From an uncultured bacterium (GTDB lineage: Bacteria > Bacillota_I > Bacilli_A > RFN20 > CAG-826): a stretch of DNA of 64,000 nt. The position numbers and the translations under genes were made by a program. The notes beneath the pieces were generated by a model, which ran no database searches, was not told the origin of the DNA, and saw only the letters and a program-made list of their open reading frames with translations. This document shows, piece by piece, positions 4,064 through 44,697 of the stretch (positions are counted from its first letter, which is position 1; the number at the start of each line of letters is the position of its first letter). The stretch lies in contig CASFSS010000018.1 of the NCBI GenBank assembly GCA_949297445.1, forward strand, positions 163,884 to 227,883, written 5' to 3'.

Positions 4064-4145
4064 AAAGAGCGTTTGGGACTTCAAAAAAATAATTTAGGCA
4101 AAAAAATCAAATATTCAAAAACTAAGCATTTAGCAGCTAAAAAAT

Positions 4146-4179
4146 AAGGGAATAAATATATATTCCCTTTTTATTTTTT
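4146..4179 (+). terminator. Rho-independent terminator after dnaN
   Basis: AAGGGAATA / TATTCCCTT 9-bp stem (4146-4169) followed by TTTTATTTTTT. A TGgTAAAAT extended -10 promoter for yaaA-recF follows. Confidence 0.55.
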
Positions 4180-4218
4180 GTGTGGTAAAATATCCCCGAG
4201 TGATGAAATGAGTTTTTG

Positions 4219-4440
4219 ATGAATAAGAAAATTGAAGAAATTGTTATCCGCGATGAGTACATCACCTTAGGCTCTCTTCTAAAATTTTGCCACGTTATTA
4301 GTTCAGGAGGAGAGGTAAAAATGTTTCTTGGCCAAGGCGCAGTAAAAGTTAATGGTGTAAACGAGACGCGCCGAGGAAGAAAATTATATCCTGATGATGT
4401 AATCGAGGTGGAAACAAGAACTTTAAAAATTGTTAAGTGA
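4219..4440 (+). CDS. yaaA: S4-domain RNA-binding protein YaaA
   Basis: Small protein between dnaN and recF as in Bacillus. It carries the S4-like motif GAVKVNGV.... Confidence 0.8.
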   Translation: MNKKIEEIVIRDEYITLGSLLKFCHVISSGGEVKMFLGQGAVKVNGVNETRRGRKLYPDDVIEVETRTLKIVK

Positions 4441-7501: not shown

Positions 7502-7519
7502 TACGGAGGACATTAACAA

Positions 7520-25163: not shown

Positions 25164-25178
25164 GCGATGGAGGTAAAA

Positions 25179-25823
25179 ATGGACGAAAATGTTTCCAACC
25201 GACAACTTGAACGATATCCAATGTATCTTAGTCATTTATTGATGCTAAGTGAAGCCGGTGTCGTCAATATTAGCGCACCGACAATTGCGGCGGCATTGCA
25301 CCTTAACGTCGAGCAGGTTCGTAAAGATTTACAAGCTGTTTCTAGCAGCGAGGGCAAGCCAAAATTTGGTCGCAATGTTGAAGAGTTAATTGCCGATTTA
25401 AAGAAATTTTTAGGCTATAACGAAACGAACAAAGCAATCGTTGTTGGAGTCGGTCATCTGGGACAAGCATTTTTGAATTATTCCGGCTTTACTCGCTATG
25501 GATTAGATATTGTTATGGGTTTTGATATTGATCCTTTGATTGTCGGTAGCGAAATAAACGGGAAACCGATTTATTCACTCGATGAAATTGGTAAATATTT
25601 AGCCGATAGTGATATAAAAATTGCCGTTTTAACAACGCCACAAGGTGTGGCACAAGAAGTCAGCGATGTGCTGACAAAAAATGGCATCCGTGGAATTTGG
25701 AACTTTACTCCTATTCATCTCTCTCATCCTCTTAATGTGGTGGTTGAAGACATGAATTTAGCGAGTTCGCTTGCCAAATTTTCCCATCGTTTGCAGATTT
25801 TATTAAAAAAGGAGAAAAGCTAA
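25179..25823 (+). CDS. rex: Redox-sensing transcriptional repressor Rex
   Basis: N-terminal winged helix plus the Rossmann NADH-binding motif VVGVGHLGQAF. ATG at 25179 follows a GGAGG RBS. Confidence 0.85.
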   Translation: MDENVSNRQLERYPMYLSHLLMLSEAGVVNISAPTIAAALHLNVEQVRKDLQAVSSSEGKPKFGRNVEELIADLKKFLGYNETNKAIVVGVGHLGQAFLNYSGFTRYGLDIVMGFDIDPLIVGSEINGKPIYSLDEIGKYLADSDIKIAVLTTPQGVAQEVSDVLTKNGIRGIWNFTPIHLSHPLNVVVEDMNLASSLAKFSHRLQILLKKEKS

Positions 25824-28441
25824 TGCAAGGACAAATAGTTTCCATTGAAGCTTTTGAAGAAGTTGACAAGCTCGTAAGAAATGGGCAAAAAGCACTCAAT
25901 GAATTTTTGAAACTAAATCAAGAACAAGTCGACTATATTGTTGCAAAGTGTTCGGTTGCTGGTCTTGATCACCATGGGACTTTAGCCGCAATGGCAATTG
26001 AAGAAACGAAACGTGGTGTTTTTGAAGACAAAGCAACAAAAAACTTATTTGCGTGCGAATATGTTGTCAACAATATGCGTCACTTAAAAACAGTTGGTAT
26101 CATTAAAGATGATCCGGTAACTGGTATCACCGAGATTGCTGACCCAATGGGTGTTATCTGTGGAATTACGCCAGTCACCAATCCAACTAGTACCGTTATT
26201 TTTAAATGCTTAATTGCTTTAAAAACACGTAACCCAATTATTTTTTCATTCCATCCTAGCGCCCATGAATGTTCAAAGCGGGCCGCCCAAATTATGTTAG
26301 ATACAGCGGTGGCTGCTGGGGCACCAAAAAATTGTATTCAGTGGATTGAACAAATATCGATGGATGCGACGACCGCATTGATGAATCATACCGGTGTAGC
26401 GACAATTTTGGCTACTGGCGGAAATGCGATGGTTAAAGCTGCTTATAGTTGTGGCAAACCAGCAATGGGTGTCGGTGCTGGTAATGTTCCCGCCTACATT
26501 CATAAAAGCGCCAATGTTGAACAAGCAGTCAATGATATAGTTTCATCGAAATCGTTTGATAATGGTATGGTTTGTGCTTCTGAACAGGCAGCGATTATCG
26601 ACGAAGAAGTTTTTGATGAAGCCATCAATTTGTTTAAACGTTTCAAAGTTTATTTTGTTACACCAGCTGAAAAAACAAAGTTGGAAAAATATATGTTTGG
26701 TTACGCAAAAGGAGACCCAAACATTGAGTTATCACGCCTCAATCCAAAGATTGTTGGTATGTCAGCTCATTTTATTGCTGAACAAGCTGGTTTCTCGGTT
26801 CCTGAAGATACCTCTATTTTGGCTGTTCATTGTAAAACAGTCGGCATCGAAGAACCTTTGTCGCGAGAAAAATTGTCTCCTGTATTAGCAATTTATAAAG
26901 TTAAAGATGAAAAAGAAGGCTTTGACGTGGCCAGCAAATGTGTCGAATTCAATGGATTAGGACATAGTGCTGCTATCCACTGTAAAGAGCAATCTTTGGC
27001 CGACGCTTATGGCGAGCGCTGCAAAGCGATGCGAATTATTTGGAATTCGCCATCTACCTTTGGTGGCATTGGAAATATATATAATTCGTTCTTGCCAAGT
27101 ATGACATTAGGCTGTGGTAGTTATGGAAGAAACTCCATTGGCGGTAATGTCAGTGCAATCAATTTGTTAAATATTAAAAAGGTCGGTAAAAGGAGAAATA
27201 CTATGCAATGGTTTAAAGTACCACGCAAGATATATTTTGAACGCAACTCGATTCAATATTTACAATCTTGCCGCGACATCGAAAAAGTTTTTATTGTCAC
27301 CGATCGCTCGATGGTTGATTTCGGCTATGTTTCTCGTGTGACCGATCAATTAAATATGCGTCGTAACAAAGTTCAAATTCAATTGTTCTGTGATGTTGAG
27401 CCAGATCCAGATATTGAAACCGTTTTGCGCGGTGTTAAATTGATGGACGCATTCCGTCCCGATACAATTATTGCTATCGGCGGTGGTTCCCCAATGGATG
27501 CCGCAAAAGGAATGTGGTTATTCTATGAACATCCAGAAGTTAATTTTGATGATTTGAAACAAAAGTTTATGGATATTCGTAAACGAGCTTTCCGCTATCC
27601 TGAACTTGGTTTAAAATCTAAACTCATTTGTATACCGACAACATCTGGAACTGGTTCAGAAGTTACCCCGTTTGCGGTTATTTCCGACAAAAAGAACAAC
27701 AAGAAGTATCCGTTAACGGATTATTCATTAACACCAACAATTGCTATTGTTGACCCAGAGTTTGTTACCACTTTGCCAGCGCGCCCAACTGCTATTACTG
27801 GTATGGACGTCTTGACGCACGCGATTGAAGCGTATGTGTCTGTTTTGGCAAACGATTACACGGATGGATTAGCCCTTCAAGCAATCAAATTGGTTTTTGA
27901 ATATTTGCCTCGCGCGGTTAAAGATGGTCCACACGATTTAGAAGCACGCGAAAAAATGCATAATGCAGCAACGATTGCCGGTATGGCTTTTGCCAATGCG
28001 TTCTTAGGCATGGCTCACTCGTTAGCCCATAAAATTGGTGGTGAATTCCATACTGTTCATGGTTATACATGTTCCATCGTGTTGCCATATGTTATTCGTT
28101 ATAATGGCACTACCCCAACAAAATTATCTGTTTGGCCAAAATATAACGTTTATAAAGCAGATAAGAAGTATCAAGAAATTGCTAAATTGCTCGGCCTACC
28201 TGCCGCTACTCCCGCCGAAGGAGTAGAATCGCTAGCTAAAGCTGTTAAAAATTTAGCAATCGAAATTGGTCTTGAAACAAGCTTTGAGAAACTCGGTATC
28301 GATGAAAAAGAATGGAATTCTAAAATTGATACTGTGGCGGTCTTAGCTTATGAAGATCAATGTTCACCAGCAAATCCAAGAGTTCCTCTTGTTAAGGATA
28401 TGAAGGAAATTTTAAGAAAGGCTTATAAAGGTATTGATTAA
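25823..28441 (+). CDS. adhE: Bifunctional acetaldehyde-CoA/alcohol dehydrogenase
   Basis: 872 aa. The N-terminal ALDH domain has the catalytic Cys (VCASEQ) and the C-terminal domain is an Fe-ADH with GGGSPMDAAK. Start overlaps the rex stop. Confidence 0.95.
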   Translation: MQGQIVSIEAFEEVDKLVRNGQKALNEFLKLNQEQVDYIVAKCSVAGLDHHGTLAAMAIEETKRGVFEDKATKNLFACEYVVNNMRHLKTVGIIKDDPVTGITEIADPMGVICGITPVTNPTSTVIFKCLIALKTRNPIIFSFHPSAHECSKRAAQIMLDTAVAAGAPKNCIQWIEQISMDATTALMNHTGVATILATGGNAMVKAAYSCGKPAMGVGAGNVPAYIHKSANVEQAVNDIVSSKSFDNGMVCASEQAAIIDEEVFDEAINLFKRFKVYFVTPAEKTKLEKYMFGYAKGDPNIELSRLNPKIVGMSAHFIAEQAGFSVPEDTSILAVHCKTVGIEEPLSREKLSPVLAIYKVKDEKEGFDVASKCVEFNGLGHSAAIHCKEQSLADAYGERCKAMRIIWNSPSTFGGIGNIYNSFLPSMTLGCGSYGRNSIGGNVSAINLLNIKKVGKRRNTMQWFKVPRKIYFERNSIQYLQSCRDIEKVFIVTDRSMVDFGYVSRVTDQLNMRRNKVQIQLFCDVEPDPDIETVLRGVKLMDAFRPDTIIAIGGGSPMDAAKGMWLFYEHPEVNFDDLKQKFMDIRKRAFRYPELGLKSKLICIPTTSGTGSEVTPFAVISDKKNNKKYPLTDYSLTPTIAIVDPEFVTTLPARPTAITGMDVLTHAIEAYVSVLANDYTDGLALQAIKLVFEYLPRAVKDGPHDLEAREKMHNAATIAGMAFANAFLGMAHSLAHKIGGEFHTVHGYTCSIVLPYVIRYNGTTPTKLSVWPKYNVYKADKKYQEIAKLLGLPAATPAEGVESLAKAVKNLAIEIGLETSFEKLGIDEKEWNSKIDTVAVLAYEDQCSPANPRVPLVKDMKEILRKAYKGID

Positions 28442-28692
28442 TGACAGTATTAGTTTGTGTTGGTAGTTCTTGCCATTTAAAAGGAAGTTACGACATTATT
28501 GAATTGATGAAGGCGGCAATTGCCGCCCATCATCTCGAAGATAAAGTAACTCTCAAAGCAACATTTTGCCTCGGCAAATGTGCAATCAGCGGTGTCTGCA
28601 TTAAAGTTGATGATGATATCATCACTGGTGTGACAAAAAACAATTTTGAAGAAGTGTTCAAAACAAATATTCTCGACAAATTAAATTATTAA
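28441..28692 (+). CDS. Thioredoxin-like [2Fe-2S] ferredoxin (NuoE/HndA-like small protein)
   Basis: 83 aa with Cys pattern CVGSSCH...CLGKCAISGVC. It is translationally coupled to adhE (ATTAATG). Confidence 0.65.
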   Translation: MTVLVCVGSSCHLKGSYDIIELMKAAIAAHHLEDKVTLKATFCLGKCAISGVCIKVDDDIITGVTKNNFEEVFKTNILDKLNY

Positions 28693-28713: not shown

Positions 28714-30405
28714 ATGCCATACGCTTTAGAAAGTCGTAAAAATGATTGCCGCAACTGTTATAAATGTATTCGCGGTTGTCCAGTAAAATCGATATCATTT
28801 GGTGATAACAATCAAGCATCTATTATTCATGATGATTGCATTTTATGTGGTCATTGTTTTCTACTTTGTCCACAAGAATGTAAAGAAATTCGTGACGATA
28901 TTTCTAAAGCGAAAGCTCTTATTAAAAGCGGCAAAAAAGTTATTGTATCGCTCGCGCCAAGCTATGTTTCTGGCTACATTAATTGCTCTTTTGAAAACAT
29001 AAAAAAATCATTGCTTCAATTGGGCTTTTATGATGTCGAAGAAACAGCCATTGGCGCGACGATTGTCAAACAAATTTATGATGAAATGGTGGCAAAGGGT
29101 GATCGTGATGTTATTATTTCCACATGCTGCCATAGTGTAAATCTTTTGGTACAAAAGCATTATCCCGATTTGATACCTTGCTTAGCGGATGTTTTATCCC
29201 CTATGCTCGCTCATGCTCGTGATATTAAACTTCGCTACCCGGATTCATACGTCGTATTTATCGGACCTTGCATTGCTAAAAAAGACGAAGCTGACCAAGA
29301 CAAAAATCATTATGTCGATTGTGTCTTAACATACTTAGAACTTGATCGTTGGTTAAAAGAAGACGATATCGTTTTAGAAGAAGACGGCGGAACCAAAATG
29401 CTTGAAAAATCTAAAGCGCGCCTTTTTCCAACGACAGGTGGAATTTTAAACACAATGGAAAAGAATAGTCCCGACTATCAATATTTAGCTGTCGATGGGA
29501 CATTTAATGTCATGGCAGCTTTAGAAGATATTCGAGAAGGCAAGGTTCATAAATGTTTCATCGAAATGTCATCCTGCCCCGGCTCATGTATCAATGGTCC
29601 GGCAGTGGCCACAAGTGCTCGCTCGTTGCTAGCGGGTTATATAAAGGTACACAATGCTTCTGGAAAGCAAGATTTTTCCGTAACAAGCACAAAATATGAT
29701 GATATTGCGGTGAAATTTAGATCAACAGGCGTCTCGAAAGCGCGCCCAAGCGACCTTGACATTCAAAAAGAATTAGTCGATATGGGCAAATATACTAAAA
29801 AGGATGAACTTAATTGTGGTTCTTGTGGATATGACACATGTCGCGAAAAGGCAATTGCCATTTTGGAAGGCAAAGCCATCAAGGAAATGTGTCTACCATT
29901 CTTGATGCAAAAGGCACAAAGTTTCTCCGATAAAGTTATTTTTAATACCCCAAATGGTTTGATGGCTCTTGATGAGAATTTAAATATTCAATTAATTAAT
30001 CCGGCAATGCGACAAATTGTTGGCGTTGCCCATGCTCGTGAGGTAATTGGCAAGAATGTTTCGACCATTCTAGACCCTTCAATTTTTGCCATGGCTCTTA
30101 CAGGCGAAAAAATTCACGCTCGCCGTGATTATTTAAGTGAATACGATAAATACGTCGAAGAAACCGTTGTTTTTGACGAAAAATATCGCGTCTTAATTTC
30201 GATTTTTAGAGACGTAACTCAAGAGCAAAAGAAAATTTTGAAAAAAGAAGAAACGGTCAATAAATCAGTTGATATTACCAATGCTGTTATTGAAAAAAAT
30301 ATGCGTGTCGTTCAGGAAATAGCCTCGTTATTAGGCGAAAGTGCCGCCGAAACAAAAATCGCTCTTTCTTCACTCAAGGATACACTAAAAAATGATGGTG
30401 AGTAA
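28714..30405 (+). CDS. hydS: Putative sensory [FeFe]-hydrogenase with C-terminal PAS domain (HydS / HfsB-like, group C)
   Basis: Two N-terminal 4Fe-4S motifs (CRNCYKCIRGCP, CILCGHCFLLCP). H-cluster motifs are STCCHS (L1 variant), IGPCIAKKDE (L2) and EMSSCPGSCINGP (L3 with Met replaced by Ser, no GGGQP). An extra CGSCGYDTC motif and a PAS-like C-terminal ~130 aa follow. Confidence 0.8.
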   Translation: MPYALESRKNDCRNCYKCIRGCPVKSISFGDNNQASIIHDDCILCGHCFLLCPQECKEIRDDISKAKALIKSGKKVIVSLAPSYVSGYINCSFENIKKSLLQLGFYDVEETAIGATIVKQIYDEMVAKGDRDVIISTCCHSVNLLVQKHYPDLIPCLADVLSPMLAHARDIKLRYPDSYVVFIGPCIAKKDEADQDKNHYVDCVLTYLELDRWLKEDDIVLEEDGGTKMLEKSKARLFPTTGGILNTMEKNSPDYQYLAVDGTFNVMAALEDIREGKVHKCFIEMSSCPGSCINGPAVATSARSLLAGYIKVHNASGKQDFSVTSTKYDDIAVKFRSTGVSKARPSDLDIQKELVDMGKYTKKDELNCGSCGYDTCREKAIAILEGKAIKEMCLPFLMQKAQSFSDKVIFNTPNGLMALDENLNIQLINPAMRQIVGVAHAREVIGKNVSTILDPSIFAMALTGEKIHARRDYLSEYDKYVEETVVFDEKYRVLISIFRDVTQEQKKILKKEETVNKSVDITNAVIEKNMRVVQEIASLLGESAAETKIALSSLKDTLKNDGE

Positions 30406-31573
30406 TCTTATCACGGAAGTTGGCTATCTATCAATCAATCACGACGGTGAAGAACTTTGTGGTGATCATGTTCAACTAATAAACAATAAACAATCGCGGA
30501 CAACCACTCTCGTTTTAGCCGACGGGTTAGGTAGCGGAGTCAAAGCAAATATTTTGAGTACTTTGACGAGCGAAATTCTTTCGACGATGATTGCGAACAA
30601 TTTGCCAATCGATGAGTGTGTTAAAACAATCATGGAAACGTTACCAGTTTGTAAAGTTCGTGGCGTTGCTTATTCCACTTTCACCATTATTCATATATTA
30701 GATTCGCGACAAGCAATAATTTATAATTACGATAATCCACAACCATTTTTAATTAGAAATGGTAAATATCGTCCTCTTGACTGGAGTTCACAAATCATCG
30801 ATGAAAAAACCATCTCTTTTGCCTCTATTTATTTAGTTGAGGGAGACACTTTCTTCTTAATGTCCGATGGCGTCATTCACGCCGGCATTGGAGCGACTTT
30901 GAATTTTGGTTGGGATATTATGAGTGTGATTGACTATGCCGAAGGGCTATTCGACGAAAAATATTCAGCCAAATCGCTCGCGACTTATTTAATTAGTCAC
31001 GTAAATGATTTATACAATGGTCATCCTGGGGATGATGCGACTGTGGCCGCCATCAAAATTCGTCCGCGCAAGCAGGTAAATTTAATGATTGGTCCAGCCT
31101 CGAACCGCGAAGATGATGAAAAAATGCTCTCGCTATTTTTCGCTAAAGAAGGCAAACACATCGTTTGCGGTGGCACTACTTCTCATGTGGTTGCCAATTA
31201 CTTAAAAAAAGAACTCGAATTCCCCCTTGATTATATTGATAAAGAAATACCGCCGACGGCCAAAATTGAGGGTGTGGATTTAGTGACAGAAGGTGTCATC
31301 ACAATCAATAAAGTTTTGCAATACGCCGACAATGTATTCAAGGACAATAGTGATTATTTTACTTGGTCGTTTAAGCAGGATGGAGCCTCACAAATTGCTC
31401 GCCTTTTATTTGAAGAAGCCACCGACATTAACTTTTTTGTCGGTTGTGCGATTAACCCTGCCCACCAACAAGATGGCATTCCAATCAATTTCAATACAAA
31501 AATGCAATTGGTGGATGAATTATCTAAAGCCTTAAAAAAGATGAACAAAAGCATTAAAGTAAGTTATTTTTAA
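30392..31573 (+). CDS. PP2C/SpoIIE-type serine phosphatase with uncharacterised C-terminal domain (HfsC-like)
   Basis: LVLADGLGSGVKANILS and FLMSDGV are PP2C metal-binding Asp motifs. Start overlaps the hydS stop, and the C-terminal ~160 aa has no recognisable motif. Confidence 0.7.
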   Translation: MMVSNLITEVGYLSINHDGEELCGDHVQLINNKQSRTTTLVLADGLGSGVKANILSTLTSEILSTMIANNLPIDECVKTIMETLPVCKVRGVAYSTFTIIHILDSRQAIIYNYDNPQPFLIRNGKYRPLDWSSQIIDEKTISFASIYLVEGDTFFLMSDGVIHAGIGATLNFGWDIMSVIDYAEGLFDEKYSAKSLATYLISHVNDLYNGHPGDDATVAAIKIRPRKQVNLMIGPASNREDDEKMLSLFFAKEGKHIVCGGTTSHVVANYLKKELEFPLDYIDKEIPPTAKIEGVDLVTEGVITINKVLQYADNVFKDNSDYFTWSFKQDGASQIARLLFEEATDINFFVGCAINPAHQQDGIPINFNTKMQLVDELSKALKKMNKSIKVSYF

Positions 31574-31586: not shown

Positions 31587-33047
31587 ATGGTAAGCGAAGA
31601 AATTAAAGCAAAATTTGACACGCGTGTACAAGAATTAAAATATCGCGTGCTAAAAGAGGTTGCCCGCTCGTATTTTAATGGTACTTTAATTCAAGATTAT
31701 TCAACTATTCCTGAAAAAATCTCCCCCGGTCCGAAAGCGACGATGCGTTGCTGCATCTATAAAGAGCGCGCCATCGTTTTAGAAAGAATGAAATTAGCTA
31801 CCGGTGGCGATCGAACAAGAAATAATGTCGTACAGGTTTTAAAAATAGCTTGTGATGAATGCCCGTTAGGTGGTTATGAGGTAACTCGCAACTGTCGTGG
31901 TTGTATCGCCCATCGCTGCGAAAAAGCATGCTTTAAAAAAGCCATTACTTTTGATCCGGTTACTCACGCGGCTATCATTGACAAAACAAAATGTGTAAAT
32001 TGCGGGATGTGCGCTAAAGCGTGCCAATATAATGCAATCAATAATTATCGACGTCCTTGCGAAGTTGCCTGCAAGATGAACGCCATTAGTCACGATGAAA
32101 ATTTCGCGGCAGAAATTGATGACGAAAAGTGCATTCAATGTGGACAATGTGTCTATCAATGTCCATTTGGAGCAATTATGGATGTTTCTTATATTACCGA
32201 TGTTATTGACATGCTTAAAGACAGCGATTTTTCAAAAAAATATCATGTTTATGCCGTCATCGCCCCTTCCATTTCTTCACAGTTTAAATATGCGACGCTT
32301 GGTCAAATTATCAAAGCGATTGAAGTGTTAGGTTTTCATAATGTAGTCGAAGCCGCTTTAGGCGCCGATATGGTCGCTTATAAGGAAGCCAAAGAGCTGT
32401 CGGAAAAAGGTTTCTTATTATCGAGTTGTTGTCCGTCTTTTGTATCTTTTGTTGAGAAAAAATTTCCTAAGTTAAAAGAAAGCATTTCAGAGAATTTATC
32501 GCCGATGGCGACAATTGCTCAATATATTAAATCCGTTGACCCAACTGCTAAAGTTGTTTTTATTGGTCCTTGTGTAGCTAAAAAACAAGAGATCAAACGT
32601 CCGAAAGTTGGCGAATATATTGATAGTGTTTTGACCTTTGAGGAATTACAAGCCTTGATTGATGCTAGAGAAATCGATGCCTCTAAATTAGAAGAGTCTA
32701 GTTTGGATAACGCTTCATATTTTGGTCGCATTTTCGCTAGAAGTGGTGGCTTGCATGACGCCGTTAATGAAGCACTTAAAGAACAACATCTTGACTTTAA
32801 TTTGAATGCCGGTGTCGGCGACGGTTTTGACTTATGTCGTCAATTATTATTAAAATGCAATACAGACACTAAACCATTTAATTTTATCGAGGGTATGATT
32901 TGTAGTAACGGCTGCATTGGTGGCCCATGCTGCTTGACGCATGAAGTACGCGATAAAAGTGAAGTGGATAAATATGGCAACGAAGCCAAAGAAAAGACCA
33001 TCGAAGACGCTATCAAATATGTCTATAACGTCACTTCCACTCATTGA
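31587..33047 (+). CDS. hydA: [FeFe]-hydrogenase catalytic subunit (monomeric, ferredoxin-domain N-terminus)
   Basis: H-cluster motifs SSCCPSF (L1), IGPCVAKKQE (L2) and EGMICSNGCIGGPCC (L3). N-terminal Cys clusters are CVNCGMCAKAC and CIQCGQCVYQCP plus extra Cys. Confidence 0.85.
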   Translation: MVSEEIKAKFDTRVQELKYRVLKEVARSYFNGTLIQDYSTIPEKISPGPKATMRCCIYKERAIVLERMKLATGGDRTRNNVVQVLKIACDECPLGGYEVTRNCRGCIAHRCEKACFKKAITFDPVTHAAIIDKTKCVNCGMCAKACQYNAINNYRRPCEVACKMNAISHDENFAAEIDDEKCIQCGQCVYQCPFGAIMDVSYITDVIDMLKDSDFSKKYHVYAVIAPSISSQFKYATLGQIIKAIEVLGFHNVVEAALGADMVAYKEAKELSEKGFLLSSCCPSFVSFVEKKFPKLKESISENLSPMATIAQYIKSVDPTAKVVFIGPCVAKKQEIKRPKVGEYIDSVLTFEELQALIDAREIDASKLEESSLDNASYFGRIFARSGGLHDAVNEALKEQHLDFNLNAGVGDGFDLCRQLLLKCNTDTKPFNFIEGMICSNGCIGGPCCLTHEVRDKSEVDKYGNEAKEKTIEDAIKYVYNVTSTH

Positions 33048-36969: not shown

Positions 36970-39585
36970 ATGAAAAAGTCGCAACGTAAAACACCATATT
37001 TTGATGCCTTAAAAAAATATTTGTCAGTCGAAGTTTCTCCTTTTGATGTGCCAGGACATCATATGGGTAATGTCCCGAACAAATTAAAAACATTAGTTGG
37101 TGAAAATGTTTTTCGTGCGGACGTCAACGCTCCTATCGGCATGGACAATTTAGCCGCTCCTCGCGGCCCGCTTTTAGAGGCACAACGATTGATGGCGGAT
37201 TTTTGTGGAGCGAGTCGGGCTTTTTTCTTAATTAACGGCACAACTTCGGGCATCATTGCGATGATAATGACTGCTTGTCGAGCTAACGACCGAATTATTT
37301 TGCCACGCAACGTTCATAAATCAATTATTAATGCTTTGGTTTTAAGTGGAGCCATTCCGACTTATATTATGCCCCGCTTAGATTCTGAATTAGAGATTGC
37401 CAATCAACCATCGGTAGATGATTACGTTAGGGCAATGAATCGTTATCCGTCCGCTAAAGCTATTTTTGTTATTAATCCAACTTATTTTGGTTCCGTTATT
37501 GATTTGAAGCAATTGGTAGAAATTGCTCACGCACGAGGAATCGCGGTTTTGGTAGATGAAGCGCATGGCGCCCATTATTATTTCAACAAAAATGGTCCGC
37601 TATCAGCTATGGAATGTGGAGCGGATATGTCTAGTGTTTCCTTCCATAAGACAGGTGGCAGTTTGACTCAATCGAGCGTGTTATTATTAAACGAGGGTAT
37701 TTTCTCGCGCCGAGAAATACAAAAAACATTAAATATATTAAATACAACTTCACCTAATACATTGTTGCTTGCTAGTTTAGACACCGCTCGTGAATATGTG
37801 GCTATGCATGGCCAAGCAAACATGAATCGCGTTTTTGAATTAAGTGATTTTGCGAGAGAACAAATTGATAAAATTAAAGGCTTTAAAACAGTTGGCAAAG
37901 ACCATTTTGTAAAATACGGTTCTTACGATTATGACAAAACAAAACTAGTAATCGCGTTAGAACACCTCGACATAAACGGTTTTGAATTATATAAGTTTTT
38001 AAAAGTCGATTATAACATTCAAGTGGAACTAGCCGAGACCTATGTCATTATGGCCATTTTAGCAATCGGTACAAAGAAAAAGCATATTTTAGCTTTAATA
38101 AAAGCGTTAAAAGATATTTCTAGAAAACATTATAAAAAAAGCAATGTTCGCGATGAACATTCGTTTGGAATTGATTTCCCATATATGCTTATGCGACCTC
38201 GTTTGGCCTATCACGCCGATGGGAAAAAAGTGCCATTAGAGAAAGCCGTTAATGAAATTGCTAAAGAGCAATTGATGATTTATCCACCGGGAATACCGCT
38301 AATTGTTCCTGGCGAGGTTTTCACTAAGGAATTAGTGGATCGCATTAAAACATATAAGAAGATGAACGGAACTATATTGAGCGATTATAAAAATGCTGAC
38401 AATGTCAGCGTGATTGACCGTGACAAATGGCAACAATTCCATTTGTTTAAAAACAAACTCAATGACTATTTGATTAAAAAGATTACCACGCCACGAGGCG
38501 ATGATTATGTGATGCCTTTTGAAGGCGAGGCGCACGAAGGAACAATTATTTTACTTCCCTTCCGAAAAGACACCTGGCGAGAAAATGCTAAGCTGGCTCA
38601 AAACGCTTATCGACAAGTTATTATGGCCATCGCTAAATATGAAAAAGTATATGTCGGCATTCATCCCTCAATTTATAATTCCTTGATTGATAGCTATAAA
38701 GATGTTGACAACATCGTTCCTATCAAAATTCGTTATAACGACGCTTGGGCGCGCGACAATTGTCCTATTTTTGTCATCAACAAGGAGAACAAGATGCGTG
38801 CGGTCGATTTTCGCTTTAATGCATGGGGCGGCGAAGTAGATGGTTTATATAACAATTACAAAGAAGACGATTTGATCGCTAAGGCAATGGCAAAATATTT
38901 TGGTGTAGAAAGATATTATTTAGAAAACTTTGTCTTAGAAGGTGGCAGCATCCATGTCGATGGCAAAGGTACTTGTTTGGTGACGGAGGCATGCCTATTG
39001 TCAAACGGTCGTAACCCGCATTTAAACAAATTGCAAATAGAAGAAACCTTAAAAATTTATCTAAATGTTTCTAAAGTTATTTGGTTAAAACACGGTATCT
39101 ATTTAGACGAGACAAACGAGCATGTAGATAATATCGCTTGCTTTGTTCGTCCTGGCGTAATTGCTCTAGCCTGGACAAACGATAAAAATGATCCACAATA
39201 TGAATATTCCCTCTCTTGTTACAACATTTTGAAAAAAGAGCATGATGCGGAAGGCAATCCTTTTAAAATAGTAAAAATTATTAACCCCGAGCCAATATAT
39301 ACGAACAAAGAAGACACGAAAGGAATTCAAGCTGGTCGCTACTCGGCTGTGCCGCGCTTAGTAGGCTCACGCTTAGCGGCTAGTTACATAAATTTCTATC
39401 AAGGTGAAAAGTTTGTCATTATGCCTGGTTTTGGTGTAAAAGAAGATGGTCCGGCCTTAAAAAGAATGAAACGACTATTTCCTGAAAAGGATGTCATCCA
39501 AATCAATTCGCGTGAAATTTTATTAGGCGGTGGAAACATTCATTGCATCACTATGCAAGTGCCTAAAACTCATAAAGGAGAATAA
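36970..39585 (+). CDS. Fused arginine decarboxylase (Orn/Lys/Arg decarboxylase, PLP fold-I, Bacillus SpeA type) and agmatine deiminase
   Basis: Residues 1 to ~490 match Bacillus-type SpeA (FDVPGHHMG...PRNVHKS..SFHKTGGSL). Residues ~510-871 match agmatine deiminase (MPFEGEAHEGT...WARDNCPIFV...GGGNIHCITMQ with catalytic Cys). It is one uninterrupted ORF of 871 aa. Confidence 0.85.
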   Translation: MKKSQRKTPYFDALKKYLSVEVSPFDVPGHHMGNVPNKLKTLVGENVFRADVNAPIGMDNLAAPRGPLLEAQRLMADFCGASRAFFLINGTTSGIIAMIMTACRANDRIILPRNVHKSIINALVLSGAIPTYIMPRLDSELEIANQPSVDDYVRAMNRYPSAKAIFVINPTYFGSVIDLKQLVEIAHARGIAVLVDEAHGAHYYFNKNGPLSAMECGADMSSVSFHKTGGSLTQSSVLLLNEGIFSRREIQKTLNILNTTSPNTLLLASLDTAREYVAMHGQANMNRVFELSDFAREQIDKIKGFKTVGKDHFVKYGSYDYDKTKLVIALEHLDINGFELYKFLKVDYNIQVELAETYVIMAILAIGTKKKHILALIKALKDISRKHYKKSNVRDEHSFGIDFPYMLMRPRLAYHADGKKVPLEKAVNEIAKEQLMIYPPGIPLIVPGEVFTKELVDRIKTYKKMNGTILSDYKNADNVSVIDRDKWQQFHLFKNKLNDYLIKKITTPRGDDYVMPFEGEAHEGTIILLPFRKDTWRENAKLAQNAYRQVIMAIAKYEKVYVGIHPSIYNSLIDSYKDVDNIVPIKIRYNDAWARDNCPIFVINKENKMRAVDFRFNAWGGEVDGLYNNYKEDDLIAKAMAKYFGVERYYLENFVLEGGSIHVDGKGTCLVTEACLLSNGRNPHLNKLQIEETLKIYLNVSKVIWLKHGIYLDETNEHVDNIACFVRPGVIALAWTNDKNDPQYEYSLSCYNILKKEHDAEGNPFKIVKIINPEPIYTNKEDTKGIQAGRYSAVPRLVGSRLAASYINFYQGEKFVIMPGFGVKEDGPALKRMKRLFPEKDVIQINSREILLGGGNIHCITMQVPKTHKGE

Positions 39586-39587
39586 GT

Positions 39588-40454
39588 ATGTCAGTTAAAG
39601 TTGCGATTACACAAATGAGTTGTTCAGCCAATATTCAAGCCAATATCCACAAAGCAATTTCGCTCGTTGAAAAGGCAGCGAAAGAGGGCGCAAACATTAT
39701 TTTGTTACAAGAGTTATTTTCTTCTTTATATTTTTGTCAAGTTGAAGACTATAATAATTTCTCTTTAGCGGAAAACAAAAATGATTCAGCTTTAATAAAA
39801 ACTTTTCAAGAAGTAGCCAAAAAATATAATGTTGTTTTGCCAATTTCCTTTTTTGAAAAAAGCGGAGCTAATTATTTTAATTCCTTAGTTATGATAGATG
39901 CCGATGGAACCAATTTAGGTTTATATCGAAAGATGCATATTCCTACGGGGCAATGCTACGAAGAAAAGTTTTATTTTTCTCCTGGTGATACCGGCTATAA
40001 GATTTTTAAAACTAAATTCGGTAAAATTGGAGTTGGCATTTGCTGGGACCAATGGTTTCCCGAAGTGGCTAGAATTCTCGCTTTAAAAGGCGCGGAATTG
40101 CTTGTCTATCCGACCGCTATCGGCAGTGAACCAGTGTTGGTTAAAGATTCGATGATTCATTGGCGAAACACCATGTGTGGTCATGCTGCCGCTAATATCA
40201 TTCCTCTTTTAGCCTCTAATCGGGTTGGTGTAGAAAGTGTCGCTGGTTCAACCATGACTTTTGGTGGCTATTCTTTTATTGCCAATCAATATGGCGAAGT
40301 TGTGAAAGAATTGTCGAGAGTCGAAGAAGGGTATGCCATATACGAATTTGATTTAGATAGCATCGATAAAGATCGTATTTATTGGGGAGTATTTCGAGAT
40401 AGGCGAATCGATAGTTATTCACCTCTTCTAGAGTATGGAAACGAAGACGAATAA
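39588..40454 (+). CDS. aguB: N-carbamoylputrescine amidohydrolase (nitrilase superfamily)
   Basis: CN-hydrolase catalytic triad context (E in ILLQELF, K in RKMHIP, C in GVGICWDQWFPE). It lies immediately downstream of the deiminase fusion. Confidence 0.85.
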   Translation: MSVKVAITQMSCSANIQANIHKAISLVEKAAKEGANIILLQELFSSLYFCQVEDYNNFSLAENKNDSALIKTFQEVAKKYNVVLPISFFEKSGANYFNSLVMIDADGTNLGLYRKMHIPTGQCYEEKFYFSPGDTGYKIFKTKFGKIGVGICWDQWFPEVARILALKGAELLVYPTAIGSEPVLVKDSMIHWRNTMCGHAAANIIPLLASNRVGVESVAGSTMTFGGYSFIANQYGEVVKELSRVEEGYAIYEFDLDSIDKDRIYWGVFRDRRIDSYSPLLEYGNEDE

Positions 40455-42324: not shown

Positions 42325-43857
42325 ATGGTTTTAGAATGGGTTAAAAAATTAAAAGACGCTGCACTATCTACGTTACCAGTTATCATTGTAGTGATAGTCG
42401 TTTTTTTGGTTGATCGTTTTTTATTAAATCAATCGTTAACGAACAATGACATTATTCTTTTTGCTGTCTCAGCTGTTTTATTGACTATTGGTATGTGGCT
42501 ATTCACCATCGGGGCTGAAGCCTCAACCACTAAACTAGGTGAATATGTAGGCTCAACTTTGACGAAGAGAAAAAGCATGCTTCTTTTAGTCATAATCATC
42601 TTTTTGGTAGGCATATTAATTACTGTTGCGGAACCCGATTTATCCGCTTTATCTAATCAGGTGCCCATCAATAGTTATGTATTAATTTTTACCATTGGAG
42701 TTGGCACCGGTTTATTTTTAGTAGTCGGTGCCATTCGTATCATTTTTCAAAAAAGTTTGAAGGTATGGTTATTAGCTTTTTATGGCTTGCTTTTTGCCGT
42801 TGCTTGTCTACTAGATTCGCAATATATTCCGATATCGTTTGATAGTGGAGGCGTTACAACCGGTCCTATCACTGTGCCTTTCATTTTAGCCCTCGGCGTA
42901 GGTATTGCCACTAGCCGTGGCGGTAATAAGACTAACTCCGACTCATTCGGCTTAGTTGCCTTTGCAAGTGTTGGTCCAATAATAATGGTCATGATTTTAT
43001 CGCTAATTTTGCAAGGTTCGGGGCAAGATTTGACCATGTCGACTTCAGAAACTACCGACAATATTTGGCTCTTGCTTAAAGATGGTTTTGTTGACGCTAG
43101 TATCAATGTTTTGATTTCCTTATCGCCACTAGCGATATTCTTTTTAATCTTTAATTTCATCTTCATAAAATTGCCAAGAAAGACTTTGATAAAAATATTA
43201 GTCGCTTTGATTTATACCTACGTTGGATTAGTTTTGTTCCTTGGCTCGGTCGAAGCTGGCTTTATGAATATGGGTACTCAATTAGGAATAATTTTAGGTG
43301 CAGATAGTTCGATGCTATGGCTACTTCTTGTGATAGGCGCTACGCTAGGTGTTGCCGCCATATTTGCCGAACCAGCAGTTCATATTCTTACTGAACAAGT
43401 TGAAGAGGTGGGCGACGGCGTCATTCATAAAAGTGTCGTATTGATTGCTTTAGCAGTCGGTAATGGCTTGGCAATTGTGCTTGCTTTGCTACGCATCATT
43501 TATCAATTTCCCCTTTTATATTATTTAGTTCCTGGCTATATTTTGGCCTTTTTGTTGTCCTTCTTGGTTCCTGATATTTATAGTGCCATTGCATTTGATA
43601 GTGGAGGCGTTGTTTCCGGACCAATGAACTCAACCTTTTTAGTTCCTTTTGCTACAGGCGTTGCCACGGCTATTTCGTTGACCGATGGAGCAATTATGGA
43701 ATACGCTTTCGGCATGATTGCTTTAGTGGCGTTAATGCCTTTGATCTCAATCCAATTAGTCGGTCTATCGGCCGTGCTTAAAAGGCGCGCCGAACTTCAT
43801 ATTGCGCGAACAAGAGTGCGAGAAGAATTCGACAATCAAATTATTCATTTTGAATGA
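42325..43857 (+). CDS. DUF1538-type polytopic membrane protein with internal tandem duplication
   Basis: Two homologous halves each carry FDSGGV(T/V)(T/S)GP. An identical 18-nt string TTTGATAGTGGAGGCGTT occurs at 42839 and 43593. There are about 12 TM helices. Confidence 0.6.
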   Translation: MVLEWVKKLKDAALSTLPVIIVVIVVFLVDRFLLNQSLTNNDIILFAVSAVLLTIGMWLFTIGAEASTTKLGEYVGSTLTKRKSMLLLVIIIFLVGILITVAEPDLSALSNQVPINSYVLIFTIGVGTGLFLVVGAIRIIFQKSLKVWLLAFYGLLFAVACLLDSQYIPISFDSGGVTTGPITVPFILALGVGIATSRGGNKTNSDSFGLVAFASVGPIIMVMILSLILQGSGQDLTMSTSETTDNIWLLLKDGFVDASINVLISLSPLAIFFLIFNFIFIKLPRKTLIKILVALIYTYVGLVLFLGSVEAGFMNMGTQLGIILGADSSMLWLLLVIGATLGVAAIFAEPAVHILTEQVEEVGDGVIHKSVVLIALAVGNGLAIVLALLRIIYQFPLLYYLVPGYILAFLLSFLVPDIYSAIAFDSGGVVSGPMNSTFLVPFATGVATAISLTDGAIMEYAFGMIALVALMPLISIQLVGLSAVLKRRAELHIARTRVREEFDNQIIHFE

Positions 43858-43868
43858 GGTATCATTTA

Positions 43869-44348
43869 ATGGCTGAAAAGAAAGAAAAGGAAAAAATAAC
43901 CACTCGTCTTAAGAAGAAAGTACAAGCGATTAGTGGAAAAAAGGAAGAGTTAGAGTCAGCGCTCGCTCCCTCTTTTGAAGATAGCCATCACATATCACCT
44001 TTAAAATTGTTTGTCATCATTGTTCCTTATGGTCAAGCTGGCGCAATTATTAAGCGATTAGAATCGATGGAGGCCTCTTCTTCTTTTATTATTTCTGCAC
44101 AAGGCACAGGTTCAAAAGATATCTATGATGTAATCGGTCTTAGCGATACTAAAAAACAAGTGATTTTATCGGTTCTCAAAGAAGAAAATGTTCCTGAGTT
44201 TAAACGTTTATTAGAAGAGCGTTTTTCAATTTCTAGGGCAGCAAAAGGAATTGCTTTTTCAATTAAAATAACCTCTTTAGTGGGTGTTACCATCTATAAA
44301 TTTTTATCAAATACGCAAGTGGTGAGGGAGAAAAAGAAAAATGGTTGA
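43869..44348 (+). CDS. PII (GlnB)-like small regulatory protein, paralog 1, with N-terminal Lys-rich extension
   Basis: ATG at 43869 follows a GAGGT RBS. The C-terminal ferredoxin-like PII fold region has a GIAFS motif. It is coupled to the DUF1538 gene. Confidence 0.5.
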   Translation: MAEKKEKEKITTRLKKKVQAISGKKEELESALAPSFEDSHHISPLKLFVIIVPYGQAGAIIKRLESMEASSSFIISAQGTGSKDIYDVIGLSDTKKQVILSVLKEENVPEFKRLLEERFSISRAAKGIAFSIKITSLVGVTIYKFLSNTQVVREKKKNG

Positions 44349-44697
44349 AACAAAAGATGAAATTAAAGCAACTATAAATAACGAAAACGCTGAATTGGTT
44401 TTGGTTATTGTCAACAACGGATTTGCGGATTTAGTGATGGAGGCCGCCAAGCGTAAAGGCGCGCGAGGGGGAACAATTTTACACGCTAGAGGTACTGGAA
44501 ACAAAGAGATGGAAAAGTTTTTTGGTATCTCAATTTCTCCTGAAAAAGAAATTGTTTTAATCTTAGTGAAAAAAGATCAAAAAGATGAAATTCTTAGCGA
44601 AATATATAAAGATGCTGGATTAGATACTAACGGGCAAGGAATTGCCTTTTCTTTGCCGGTGAGCGATGTCGTTGGCGCCACATTAGGCGATAATTAA
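44341..44697 (+). CDS. PII (GlnB)-like small regulatory protein, paralog 2
   Basis: 118 aa. LVLVIVNNG...KRKGARGGTILHARGTG...GIAFS resembles the PII-like proteins that pair with DUF1538. Start overlaps the paralog 1 stop. Confidence 0.55.
   Translation: MVETKDEIKATINNENAELVLVIVNNGFADLVMEAAKRKGARGGTILHARGTGNKEMEKFFGISISPEKEIVLILVKKDQKDEILSEIYKDAGLDTNGQGIAFSLPVSDVVGATLGDN

What the first reader, a model, noticed from the sequence alone, without database searches (positions are those of the whole stretch)
30392..31573. PP2C phosphatase in the hydrogenase operon carries an uncharacterised ~160-aa C-terminal domain and has no obvious substrate
The N-terminal half has PP2C Asp motifs. The C-terminal half (from about MIGPASNREDD onward) matches nothing I recognise. 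In related clusters the phosphatase is presumed to act on a phospho-protein in an H2-signalling relay. Here no kinase or STAS/anti-sigma-antagonist gene is adjacent, so the target and the role of the extra domain are open.
Basis: inference. Interest (0 to 1): 0.55.

Follow-up and report, generated by a model that had tools for sequence, protein, structure and literature searches.

The report
Hydrogen-sensor phosphatase with unnamed conserved domain
This gene encodes the protein phosphatase that sits beside a bacterial hydrogen-gas sensor, and its tail half is a strongly conserved domain, described nowhere we could search, that is shared by thousands of gut, rumen and digester bacteria and probably helps decide how hydrogen levels switch fermentation.

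Summary
ORF 30392-31573 (+) encodes a 393-aa protein. Residues 1-223 form an intact SpoIIE/RsbX-type PP2C phosphatase. Residues 224-393 match nothing in Pfam, NCBIfam or PDB sequences.

The gene is not an oddity of this genome. It is the third gene of a conserved rex-adhE-hfsA-hfsB(hydS)-hfsC-hfsD operon. The same two-domain protein occurs in more than 8000 protein clusters and at least 592 GTDB species.

The C-domain was seen only fused behind this PP2C, and it is more conserved than the PP2C itself. AlphaFold2 predicts a confident Rossmann-like alpha/beta fold. It is not STAS, GAF or PAS. The nearest solved fold is methylglyoxal synthase, a weak match that places the invariant GGTT(S) loop on that enzyme's phosphate-binding loop.

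No kinase or STAS gene lies in the 64-kb window. However, 33 of 80 related operons carry a small APH/RIO-like kinase between adhE and hfsA.

Best reading: this is the output phosphatase of the HydS hydrogen sensor, and its C-domain is a regulatory ligand- or partner-binding module. Substrate and mechanism remain unknown, as the field acknowledges. It is an ordinary member of a known but uncharacterised family, with a useful new description of the domain.

The parts
25167..25823 (+). rex, the redox-sensing repressor and first gene of the operon
   Evidence: Pfam Put_DNA-bind_N plus CoA_binding. The same position is conserved in related loci.
25823..28441 (+). adhE, the bifunctional aldehyde/alcohol dehydrogenase
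   Evidence: Pfam Aldedh, Fe-ADH and ADH_Fe_C. Its start codon shares one base with the rex stop codon.
28441..28692 (+). hfsA-like 83-aa thioredoxin-like [2Fe-2S] ferredoxin
   Evidence: PF01257, E 1.2e-8. It sits directly upstream of hydS in nearly all 80 related loci.
28714..30405 (+). hydS/hfsB, the putative H2-sensing [FeFe] hydrogenase: N-terminal 4Fe-4S dicluster, H-domain, a further putative Fe-S (PF04060) domain, PAS, then a conserved helical tail
   Evidence: Pfam Fe_hyd_lg_C, FeS and PAS_9/PAS. Only a partial TIGR04105 match.
30298..30381 (+). HydS C-terminal tail motif NMRVVQEIASLLGESAAETKIALSSLKD, a candidate docking helix for the phosphatase
   Evidence: Most positions are at least 95% conserved across 63 orthologs. 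The docking role is inference.
30392..31060 (+). hfsC N-terminal PP2C (SpoIIE/RsbX-type) catalytic domain, residues 1-223
   Evidence: PF07228 at 64 bits. PDB sequence hits to SpoIIE and RsbX. Foldseek 5mqh at E 4e-14, TMt 0.72. The Asp motifs are invariant.
31061..31573 (+). hfsC C-terminal family-specific alpha/beta domain, residues 224-393 plus the stop codon
   Evidence: No Pfam, NCBIfam or PDB sequence hit. AlphaFold2 pLDDT 88.5, pTM 0.85. 1160 representatives at 50% identity carry it. It is more conserved than the PP2C domain.
31169..31183 (+). GGTTS loop (residues 260-264) at the C-terminal end of strand 2 and the N-terminus of helix 2, a putative phosphate-binding loop
   Evidence: G260, G261 and T263 are invariant in the 45 full-length homologs of A1 and T262 in the C-domain set A3; divergent members show T/S at 262 (one V) and T/S/A at 263. 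hhalign places it on the MGS 'TGTTG' and PurH 'TGGTA' loops.
31286..31294 (+). T-E-G motif (residues 299-301) after strand 3; E300 is invariant even in members at 30-40% identity
31454..31468 (+). N-P-A-H-Q loop (residues 355-359) after strand 4; N355 is invariant, and H358 is lost in several divergent members
31587..33047 (+). hfsD, a group B monomeric [FeFe] hydrogenase (HydA2-like) and last gene of the operon
   Evidence: TIGR04105 at 544 bits against a cut-off of 450. A GGAGA Shine-Dalgarno lies 7 nt upstream of its start codon. Convergent genes follow.

Best explanation
The gene is the HfsC-type serine/threonine phosphatase of the rex-adhE-hfsABCD fermentation-control operon. It is the presumed output enzyme of the H2-sensing [FeFe] hydrogenase HydS/HfsB, to which it is translationally coupled. 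Shown here: the N-terminal domain is a catalytically intact PP2C of the SpoIIE/RsbX branch. Shown here: the C-terminal 170 residues form a separate, rigidly attached Rossmann-like alpha/beta domain that was seen only in this protein family and is its most conserved part. Inferred: the invariant polar residues sit on the loops at the C-terminal ends of strands 1-4 (GP, CGGTT(S), DLVTEG..T, N-P-A-H). That is the classical ligand crevice of such folds, and it is arranged like the phosphate-binding site of methylglyoxal-synthase-like domains. Inferred: the domain is therefore a regulatory or recognition module. It would bind a phosphorylated ligand or phospho-protein, or the equally conserved helical tail of HydS, and so gate or target the PP2C. 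The H2 status read by HydS would then be converted into dephosphorylation of a target that sets hydrogenase and AdhE activity or expression. The target is not encoded next to the gene in this genome. Where an operon kinase exists in relatives, it is an APH/RIO-like kinase.
For: The operon is conserved across lineages at about 65% identity, shown. Short forms are frameshift fragments, and the one close relative of a short form that was recovered is a full-length fusion. The C-domain is more conserved than the PP2C domain: 66.5% against 59.8% in all-against-all comparison, higher in 857 of 990 pairs. The AlphaFold2 models are confident, with full-length pTM 0.87 and no linker between the domains. 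Invariant residues map to strand ends. The best PDB fold match is methylglyoxal synthase (1b93_C: probability 0.96, E 0.02; TM-scores 0.40-0.52 across the MGS hits). hhalign aligns GGTT to the MGS and PurH phosphate loops with a score of 24.0; 0 of 100 column shuffles reach that score, and MgsA has the best E-value among 54 templates. Literature: deleting hfsB, hfsC or hfsD redirects fermentation in Thermoanaerobacterium (PMC5707799, PMC11837493). [quoted passage not shown]
Against: No ligand, partner or substrate has been identified. The link to methylglyoxal synthase is weak: hhalign probability is 9-19%, Pfam MGS gives no hit, and TM-scores are only 0.40-0.52. The 'phosphate pocket' is therefore a motif-level inference. 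I had no model coordinates, so I could not check whether the conserved loops form one pocket or face the PP2C active site. The very high conservation would also fit an enzymatic role. Orthology to T. saccharolyticum HfsC rests on gene order and the published domain descriptions and was not tested by direct sequence comparison.
Confidence: 0.55

Rival explanations
1. The C-domain is purely a docking or dimerisation scaffold. It holds the PP2C on the HydS dimer, for example on the conserved HydS tail helix, or it dimerises the phosphatase. It binds no small molecule.
For: The HydS tail is at least 95% conserved. The two genes are translationally coupled. The two HfsC domains are rigidly packed, with full-length pTM 0.87. 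SpoIIE-family PP2Cs are known to be activated through dimerisation and partner binding (established knowledge).
Against: About 40 invariant positions include many polar residues (T, T, E, N, D, K), and they are concentrated on strand-end loops. That pattern is more typical of a ligand or active site than of a protein interface. No interaction has been tested.
Confidence: 0.17
2. The C-domain is a cis phospho-acceptor, a functional analogue of a STAS domain. A kinase (the operon APH/RIO-like one where present, another elsewhere) would phosphorylate the T262/T263/S264 loop. The attached PP2C would remove the phosphate under HydS control, as in fused RsbU-RsbW-RsbV proteins.
For: Hydroxyl residues are near-invariant at the N-terminus of a helix. 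A kinase is encoded in 33 of 80 related operons. Foldseek retrieves the multidomain Rv1364c, a PP2C with fused partner-switching domains, among the PP2C hits.
Against: The fold is not STAS. The TT(S) loop is equally conserved in operons without the kinase. No S/T column in HfsA-D tracks kinase presence. The rigid junction with no linker makes cis access to the active site uncertain.
Confidence: 0.1
3. The C-domain is a second catalytic domain, making HfsC bifunctional. It could be a phosphotransferase or kinase opposing the PP2C, which would explain the missing kinase, or an enzyme acting on a phospho-metabolite as methylglyoxal synthase does.
For: It is the most conserved element of the operon among the retrieved loci. 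It carries a Gly-rich loop plus invariant E, N, D and K residues. The nearest fold is an enzyme that acts on a phosphorylated substrate.
Against: There is no Walker or other known kinase signature and no significant homology to any enzyme family. The His of the NPAHQ loop is lost in divergent members. Many operons add a separate kinase.
Confidence: 0.1
4. The tail is a fast-evolving or disordered extension with no function, or an annotation artefact such as two genes fused by a sequencing error.
For: Public catalogues contain many 160-240-aa 'C-domain only' proteins.
Against: Those that could be traced are frameshift or truncation fragments, or have full-length fusion relatives. The full-length form is 389-393 aa in thousands of clusters. 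The domain is more conserved than the catalytic domain and folds confidently.
Confidence: 0.01

Closest known systems
HfsC of the hfsABCD operon of Thermoanaerobacterium saccharolyticum and T. thermosaccharolyticum (PMC5707799, PMC11837493)
   Same: The four-gene order is the same: small Fe-S protein, PAS-containing [FeFe] hydrogenase, Ser phosphatase, ferredoxin-linked hydrogenase. Both are linked to adhE and rex regulation and to the ethanol/H2 balance.
   Different: Orthology is inferred from synteny and the published descriptions because I had no direct sequence to compare. The papers call HfsC only 'homologous to serine phosphatases' and do not mention a second domain. Here rex and adhE sit in the same operon.
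Ser/Thr phosphatase of the Ruminococcus albus 7 HydS-HydA2-Aad gene cluster (group C [FeFe] hydrogenase, assigned to subgroup C3 from my own recollection; Zheng 2014 as cited in PMC5707799; PMC6776011)
   Same: A PP2C is co-transcribed with a PAS-bearing sensory hydrogenase, adhE and a monomeric hydrogenase, and is presumed to be an H2-signal output.
   Different: The R. albus-type clusters also carry a kinase. In 33 of the 80 loci I retrieved this is a roughly 249-aa APH/RIO-like protein. The window's operon has none.
SpoIIE / RsbU / RsbX partner-switching PP2C phosphatases (PDB 5mqh, 5ucg, 3w40, 3zt9)
   Same: These are the closest sequences and structures for residues 1-223, with the same metal-binding Asp motifs.
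   Different: Their regulatory domains are N-terminal. Their substrates are STAS proteins phosphorylated by GHKL kinases encoded nearby. Here the extra domain is C-terminal and not STAS, and no STAS or GHKL gene is present.
Methylglyoxal synthase-like domains (MgsA 1b93/6f2c; also the PurH IMP-cyclohydrolase domain and the CarB allosteric domain; Pfam PF02142)
   Same: This is the best PDB fold match for the C-domain. The order of secondary-structure elements is co-linear. A G-T-T/G-G-T loop follows strand 2 at the same 26-residue spacing from the strand-1 loop; in MGS this loop binds the substrate phosphate (from my own knowledge).
   Different: There is no significant sequence or profile match (hhalign probability 9-19%, no Pfam hit). 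TM-scores are only 0.40-0.52. The C-domain has an extra insertion of about 25 residues in two helices. Equivalents of the catalytic Asp71 and His98 are uncertain. Membership is unproven.
HoxBC-HoxJ-HoxA H2-sensing relay of Cupriavidus necator ([NiFe] regulatory hydrogenase)
   Same: The logic is the same: a low-activity hydrogenase senses H2 and controls a phosphorylation-dependent output that regulates hydrogenase genes.
   Different: The proteins are unrelated: a [NiFe] sensor, a histidine kinase and a response regulator there, against an [FeFe] sensor, a PAS domain and a PP2C here.

Membership tests
PPM/PP2C phosphatases, SpoIIE subfamily (PF07228) | Profile HMM match above the curated threshold | tested here: met
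   PF07228 at 64.0 bits against a cut-off of 25, residues 36-223 covering profile positions 3-191 of 192.
PPM/PP2C phosphatases, SpoIIE subfamily (PF07228) | Conserved metal-coordinating Asp motifs (GD, DGxGxG, SDG, GDD) | tested here: met
   D25, D44-G45, D159-G160 and D214-D215 are invariant in 45 homologs and align to the SpoIIE motifs.
PPM/PP2C phosphatases, SpoIIE subfamily (PF07228) | PP2C beta-sandwich fold | tested here: met
   Foldseek 5mqh at E 4e-14, TMt 0.72; 3pu9 at TMt 0.76; RsbX 3w40 at TMt 0.69.
PPM/PP2C phosphatases, SpoIIE subfamily (PF07228) | Mn2+/Mg2+-dependent phospho-Ser/Thr hydrolysis | not testable with these tools
   Needs an enzyme assay.
HfsC-type, HydS-linked phosphatase (group C sensory [FeFe] hydrogenase module) | Gene directly downstream of, and co-oriented with, a PAS-bearing HydS/HfsB | tested here: met
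   14-nt overlap with hydS. The same order is seen in most of the 80 GTDB loci.
HfsC-type, HydS-linked phosphatase (group C sensory [FeFe] hydrogenase module) | Flanked by a small 2Fe-2S protein upstream and a monomeric group B hydrogenase downstream | tested here: met
   PF01257 protein at 28441-28692 and TIGR04105 hydrogenase at 31587-33047.
HfsC-type, HydS-linked phosphatase (group C sensory [FeFe] hydrogenase module) | Two-domain architecture of about 390 aa with the conserved C-domain | tested here: met
   60-84% identity over 98-100% of the length to homologs of 386-393 aa. The C-domain profile matches at positions 224-393.
HfsC-type, HydS-linked phosphatase (group C sensory [FeFe] hydrogenase module) | Direct sequence orthology to the genetically studied T. 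saccharolyticum HfsC (ACU11596.1) | not tested
Orthology is inferred from synteny and published descriptions.
Partner-switching module (RsbU/SpoIIE + STAS + GHKL kinase) | STAS-domain substrate encoded nearby or fused | tested here: not met
   No STAS was found among the window ORFs. The C-domain topology (beta-alpha-beta Rossmann-like) and its Foldseek hits are not STAS.
Partner-switching module (RsbU/SpoIIE + STAS + GHKL kinase) | GHKL (HATPase_c) serine kinase encoded nearby | tested here: not met
   None in the window. In relatives the operon kinase is APH/RIO-like and not GHKL.
Methylglyoxal synthase-like domain superfamily (PF02142) | Sequence or profile match to the family | tested here: not met
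   No Pfam hit at E<=10 for 30 members. hhalign probability is 0.2-19%.
Methylglyoxal synthase-like domain superfamily (PF02142) | Fold similarity to solved MGS structures | tested here: inconclusive
   MGS is the best PDB hit but a weak one: 1b93_C at E 0.02, probability 0.96, TM 0.40/0.45; 6f2c at TMt 0.52. No hit reaches E<1e-3.
Methylglyoxal synthase-like domain superfamily (PF02142) | G-T-T / G-G-T phosphate-binding loop after strand 2 | tested here: inconclusive
   An invariant GGT[TS] loop lies at that position and is aligned to MGS TGTTG and PurH TGGTA. The real score of 24.0 exceeds all 100 column shuffles (mean 13.4, sd 2.5). Phosphate binding itself was not tested.
GAF / PAS small-molecule sensor domains | Profile match or the characteristic antiparallel-sheet fold | tested here: not met
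   No Pfam hit. The predicted topology is parallel beta-alpha-beta, and no GAF or PAS structure appears among the top 50 Foldseek hits.

The most novel reading that the evidence does not exclude
The C-domain would be a previously unrecognised phospho-ligand-binding or phosphoryl-transfer module, remotely related to the methylglyoxal-synthase fold. In that case HfsC would be a two-input switch or a bifunctional one. It would combine the H2 signal from HydS with a metabolic signal such as a triose or hexose phosphate, acetyl-phosphate or a nucleotide, or it would supply the opposing kinase-like activity itself. That would explain why most of these operons need no separate kinase or STAS partner.
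Probability: 0.15. Interest if true: 0.75.

Novelty: new member of a known kind. Interest (0 to 1): 0.45.

Why it matters
Group C sensory [FeFe] hydrogenases are abundant and highly expressed in rumen and gut fermenters. They are thought to decide whether electrons leave as H2, as ethanol or as other products. A 2024 review states that how their signal is transduced is unknown (PMC11376134). A 2025 rumen study proposes these regulatory hydrogenases as intervention targets (PMC12541428).

The phosphatase is the only obvious output enzyme of the system. This work shows that its unnamed C-terminal half is the most conserved part of the operon, that it was seen only in this family, and that it probably forms a pocket. 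That gives concrete experimental handles: residues T262/T263, E300 and N355, and the conserved tail of HydS. These can be used to dissect H2 sensing in ethanologenic thermophiles and rumen bacteria.

The gene in this window is otherwise an ordinary ortholog.

Tried and rejected
1. STAS, GAF or PAS identity for the C-domain was rejected. There are no profile hits, the topology is wrong and no such Foldseek hits appear.

2. A standalone C-domain protein was rejected. P0012 and P0031 lie in operons broken by frameshifts. The closest metagenomic relative of the 172-aa P0310 is a normal 390-aa fusion. P0289 and P0312 carry no second known domain.

3. Proving MGS homology did not succeed. I ran hhalign with a low-diversity profile and an 82-sequence profile against E. 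coli MgsA, PurH-N, CarB-C, a 5-sequence superfamily alignment and a family alignment of about 120 MGS sequences. Probability stayed at 19% or below. The match is better than shuffled or decoy templates but not significant. The third homolog search yielded only two tight MGS clades.

4. A kinase in the window was not found. tblastn with the operon kinases gave E>=0.14, and the unassigned ORFs carry no kinase or STAS domain.

5. A phosphosite that tracks kinase presence was not found in HfsA, HfsB, HfsC or HfsD. This is a weak test because it is confounded by phylogeny.

6. Toprim, LOG/SLOG, DAGK/NAD-kinase GGDGT and PTS-EIIB resemblances were considered from motifs only. I dropped them because motif order or spacing does not fit and Foldseek gives no support.

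7. Literature searches for any description of the domain found nothing. Zheng et al. 2014 was not available.

8. An internal promoter or terminator splitting the operon was not supported: scan counts were at or below shuffle expectation.
Full report
**1. The observation**

An AAGGA ribosome-binding site lies about 10 nt upstream. The ORF overlaps the stop codon of the preceding gene by 14 nt.

Pfam places a SpoIIE/PP2C domain (PF07228) on residues 36-223, at 64 bits against a cut-off of 25. It finds nothing on the rest of the protein. NCBIfam gives only a sub-threshold match to stage II sporulation protein E over the same N-terminal part. PDB sequence searches with the single protein and with a family profile hit only PP2C structures (SpoIIE 5mqh/3t91/5ucg, 3pu9, RsbX 3w40), all within residues 8-229. 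Thirty members of the C-terminal region, scanned individually against Pfam at E<=10, gave only noise.

**2. The surroundings**

All six genes lie on the + strand with overlapping or nearly abutting boundaries:

| Coordinates | Gene | Product |
|---|---|---|
| 25167-25823 | rex | redox-sensing repressor |
| 25823-28441 | adhE | aldehyde/alcohol dehydrogenase |
| 28441-28692 | hfsA-like | 83-aa thioredoxin-like [2Fe-2S] protein |
| 28714-30405 | hydS/hfsB | [FeFe] hydrogenase with N-terminal 4Fe-4S dicluster, H-domain, a further putative Fe-S domain and PAS domain |
| 30392-31573 | hfsC | the phosphatase |
| 31587-33047 | hfsD | full-length group B monomeric [FeFe] hydrogenase (TIGR04105, 544 bits) |

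Convergent genes follow the operon. Promoter-like and terminator-like matches inside the block are no more frequent than in shuffled sequence.

This is the published hfsABCD arrangement of Thermoanaerobacterium: hfsA small, hfsB a PAS hydrogenase, hfsC a 'serine phosphatase' homolog, hfsD a ferredoxin-linked hydrogenase (PMC5707799 and PMC11837493). It also matches the Ruminococcus albus HydS/HydA2/Aad cluster, whose expression falls about 111-fold when H2 is kept low. [quoted passage not shown]

**3. The family**

The full-length protein finds more than 8000 clusters at 90% identity. The best 120 are 386-393 aa long, cover 98-100% of the query at 59-100% identity, and carry only PF07228 as a precomputed domain.

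The C-terminal 170 residues alone find 1388 proteins. An exhaustive HMM search of 1.84 billion representatives at 50% identity finds 1160 proteins, 177 of them at E<=1e-30. In every listed protein of 383-404 aa the domain occupies about residues 223-404, that is, behind the PP2C.

The many 110-300-aa 'C-domain only' entries are fragments. P0012 and P0031 lie in operons whose hydrogenase genes are also broken by frameshifts. The closest metagenomic relative of the apparently standalone 172-aa P0310 is a normal 390-aa fusion inside an hfsA-hfsB-hfsC-hfsD cluster. Odd-length outliers carry no other Pfam domain.

They include Oscillospiraceae, Christensenellales, Lachnospiraceae, Erysipelotrichaceae, Anaeroplasmatales, Selenomonadales and Desulfitobacterium.

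In the 80 loci retrieved, the hfsA-hfsB-hfsC-hfsD core is almost universal and rex-adhE often precedes it. Two independent lineages at 84% and 65% identity show the identical six-gene operon.

**4. The C-terminal domain**

It is at least as conserved as the catalytic domain:

- In an alignment chosen on full-length score, all-against-all identity is 66.5% for residues 224-393 and 59.8% for residues 1-223. The C-domain is the higher in 857 of 990 pairs. It has 40 invariant positions in 170, against 49 in 223 for the PP2C domain.
- Relative to the window, it is also more conserved than HydS, HfsD, AdhE and Rex in the retrieved loci. That set was selected on C-domain similarity and is therefore biased.

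AlphaFold2 models are confident. The domain alone gives pLDDT 88.5 and pTM 0.85. The full length gives pLDDT 87.0 and pTM 0.87. The last PP2C strand (216-225) runs through a two-residue turn into the first strand of the C-domain (228-233), so there is no flexible linker.

The predicted topology is beta1-alpha1-beta2-alpha2-beta3-alpha3-(two extra helices)-beta4-alpha-beta5, a Rossmann-like three-layer sandwich. It is not a STAS, GAF or PAS fold.

The residues that stay invariant even in members at 30-40% identity sit on the loops just after strands 1-4:

- G-P after strand 1
- C-G-G-T-[TS] after strand 2, at the N-terminus of helix 2
- D-L-V-T-E-G..T after strand 3
- N(-P-A-H) after strand 4

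That is where ligands bind in such folds. This last step is inference.

**5. The nearest known fold**

Foldseek of the domain model against 350,542 PDB chains gave no match with E<=1e-3. The best matches are methylglyoxal synthases:

| PDB entry | Foldseek result |
|---|---|
| 1b93_C | E 0.02, probability 0.96, TM 0.40/0.45 |
| 6f2c | TMt 0.52 |
| 5h3l | probability 0.85 |
| 2xw6 | TMt 0.44 |

Generic Rossmann-like nucleotide binders follow.

I then tested the MGS lead directly. hhalign of the family profile against E. coli MgsA, PurH(1-150), CarB(936-end) and MGS family alignments never exceeded 19% probability. Against MgsA, PurH and the MGS-family alignments it always aligned the invariant GGTT(S) loop to the MGS 'TGTTG' or PurH 'TGGTA' loop; the CarB comparison gave an unrelated, non-significant alignment.

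Controls put that in context. The real score of 24.0 was reached by 0 of 100 column-shuffled MGS alignments (mean 13.4, sd 2.5). MgsA had the best E-value among 54 templates that included 51 unrelated window proteins.

From my own knowledge of MGS structures, this loop (T45/T47/T48) binds the substrate phosphate. The spacing from the strand-1 loop is 26 residues in both proteins.

My reading is that the domain is a very divergent MGS-like, or at least Rossmann-like, domain with a phosphate-type pocket. Membership of the MGS superfamily is not demonstrated.

**6. The N-terminal domain**

It is a bona fide PP2C, and probably an active one. The full-length model matches SpoIIE (5mqh, E 4e-14, TMt 0.72), 3pu9, the stressosome phosphatase 3zt9 and RsbX. 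All Asp motifs are invariant.

**7. Kinase and substrate**

The window contains no Hanks, GHKL or APH kinase and no STAS protein. I checked this by reading all ORFs, by Pfam on ten unassigned ORFs and by tblastn, which gave E>=0.14.

However, 33 of the 80 related operons encode a protein of about 249 aa between adhE and hfsA. It matches APH (PF01636, E 9e-14) and the RIO catalytic loop, and it carries K, HGDxxPxN and IDW motifs. It overlaps hfsA by 4 nt in one locus. This is presumably the 'Ser/Thr protein kinase' of the R. albus literature.

The system is therefore not a classical partner-switching module. No Ser/Thr column in HfsA, HfsB, HfsC or HfsD is conserved specifically in the kinase-bearing operons. 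That is a weak, phylogeny-confounded negative, and the target remains unknown.

One suggestive feature is the C-terminal tail of HydS (residues 529-556, NMRVVQEIASLLGESAAETKIALSSLKD). Most of its positions are at least 95% conserved in 63 orthologs, which makes it a natural candidate partner for the equally conserved C-domain.

**8. Mechanism**

Shown:

- The gene is a translationally coupled, universally co-inherited neighbour of HydS.
- It has an intact PP2C and a rigidly attached, family-restricted, highly conserved alpha/beta domain.

From the literature:

- HydS-type enzymes are poor catalysts and are thought to sense H2.
- Deleting hfsB raises hydrogenase and ADH activity and ethanol yield only if hfsC and hfsD are intact.
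- Deleting hfsC or hfsD shifts flux to lactate.

Inferred: HydS controls HfsC, which in turn activates or derepresses the HfsD/AdhE branch by dephosphorylating an unidentified target. The C-domain is the regulatory or recognition module. It would bind a phosphorylated ligand or phospho-protein, or the HydS tail.

I rate this at about 0.55. The rivals are a pure scaffold (0.17), a cis phospho-acceptor analogous to STAS (0.10) and a second catalytic domain (0.10).

**9. Novelty and verdict**

The gene is an ordinary ortholog of a known, genetically studied but biochemically uncharacterised family. It is therefore a new member of a known kind.

[quoted passage not shown] No paper in the searchable library describes the C-terminal domain.

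What this analysis adds:

- The domain was seen only in this family and is the best-conserved element of the operon.
- It is not STAS, GAF or PAS.
- It has a confident Rossmann-like model with a probable phosphate-type pocket and a weak MGS-like affinity.
- The operon-encoded kinase in relatives is APH/RIO-like.

**Limitations**

- I had no access to model coordinates.
- No multimer prediction and no AlphaFold DB search were available.
- About 1000 weaker domain hits were not listed.
- Orthology to T. saccharolyticum HfsC was not tested by sequence.

Noticed in passing
window 30298-30381 (HydS/HfsB residues 529-556): The C-terminal helical tail of the sensory hydrogenase, NMRVVQEIASLLGESAAETKIALSSLKD, has most positions at least 95% conserved in 63 orthologs. 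That is far above the PAS domain that precedes it. It may be the surface that contacts the phosphatase.
   Followed up: partly
related loci, e.g. L024:6545-7294, L091:614-1381: A protein of about 249 aa with an APH/RIO-like kinase fold (PF01636; HGDxxPxN and IDW motifs) lies between adhE and hfsA in 33 of 80 related operons. It is absent from the window. It could act on a protein or on a small molecule.
   Followed up: partly
L012:2763-3200 and L013:2739-3176: A genuine methylglyoxal synthase gene (about 50% identical to E. coli MgsA) lies just upstream of the adhE-hfs cluster in two Ruminococcaceae genomes. This is probably coincidence, but it is curious given the MGS-like fold hint for the C-domain.
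   Followed up: no
window 1429-10096: dnaA, dnaN, recF, gyrB and gyrA lie in order at the start of the window, so the hfs operon sits about 20-30 kb from the chromosomal replication origin region.
   Followed up: no
window 36970-40454: An 871-aa fusion joins an Orn/Lys/Arg decarboxylase (OKR_DC_1) to an agmatine deiminase (PAD_porph) domain. A probable N-carbamoylputrescine amidase follows it. Together they look like a compact putrescine pathway. The same fusion is seen in relatives.
   Followed up: no
window 42325-44697: A DUF1538 membrane protein is followed by two small ORFs. The second matches P-II (PF00543, E 4e-9) and the first has no match.
   Followed up: no
L090, L091, L092 (metagenome assemblies): Many short 'hypothetical proteins' in public catalogues that consist of the C-domain alone come from hfs operons with frameshifted genes. 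They should not be read as standalone domains.
   Followed up: yes
L021, L061, L076 and several others: Some relatives duplicate hfsA or insert extra genes of roughly 620-720 codons between hfsC and hfsD, so the module is not completely rigid. These extra genes were not identified.
   Followed up: no
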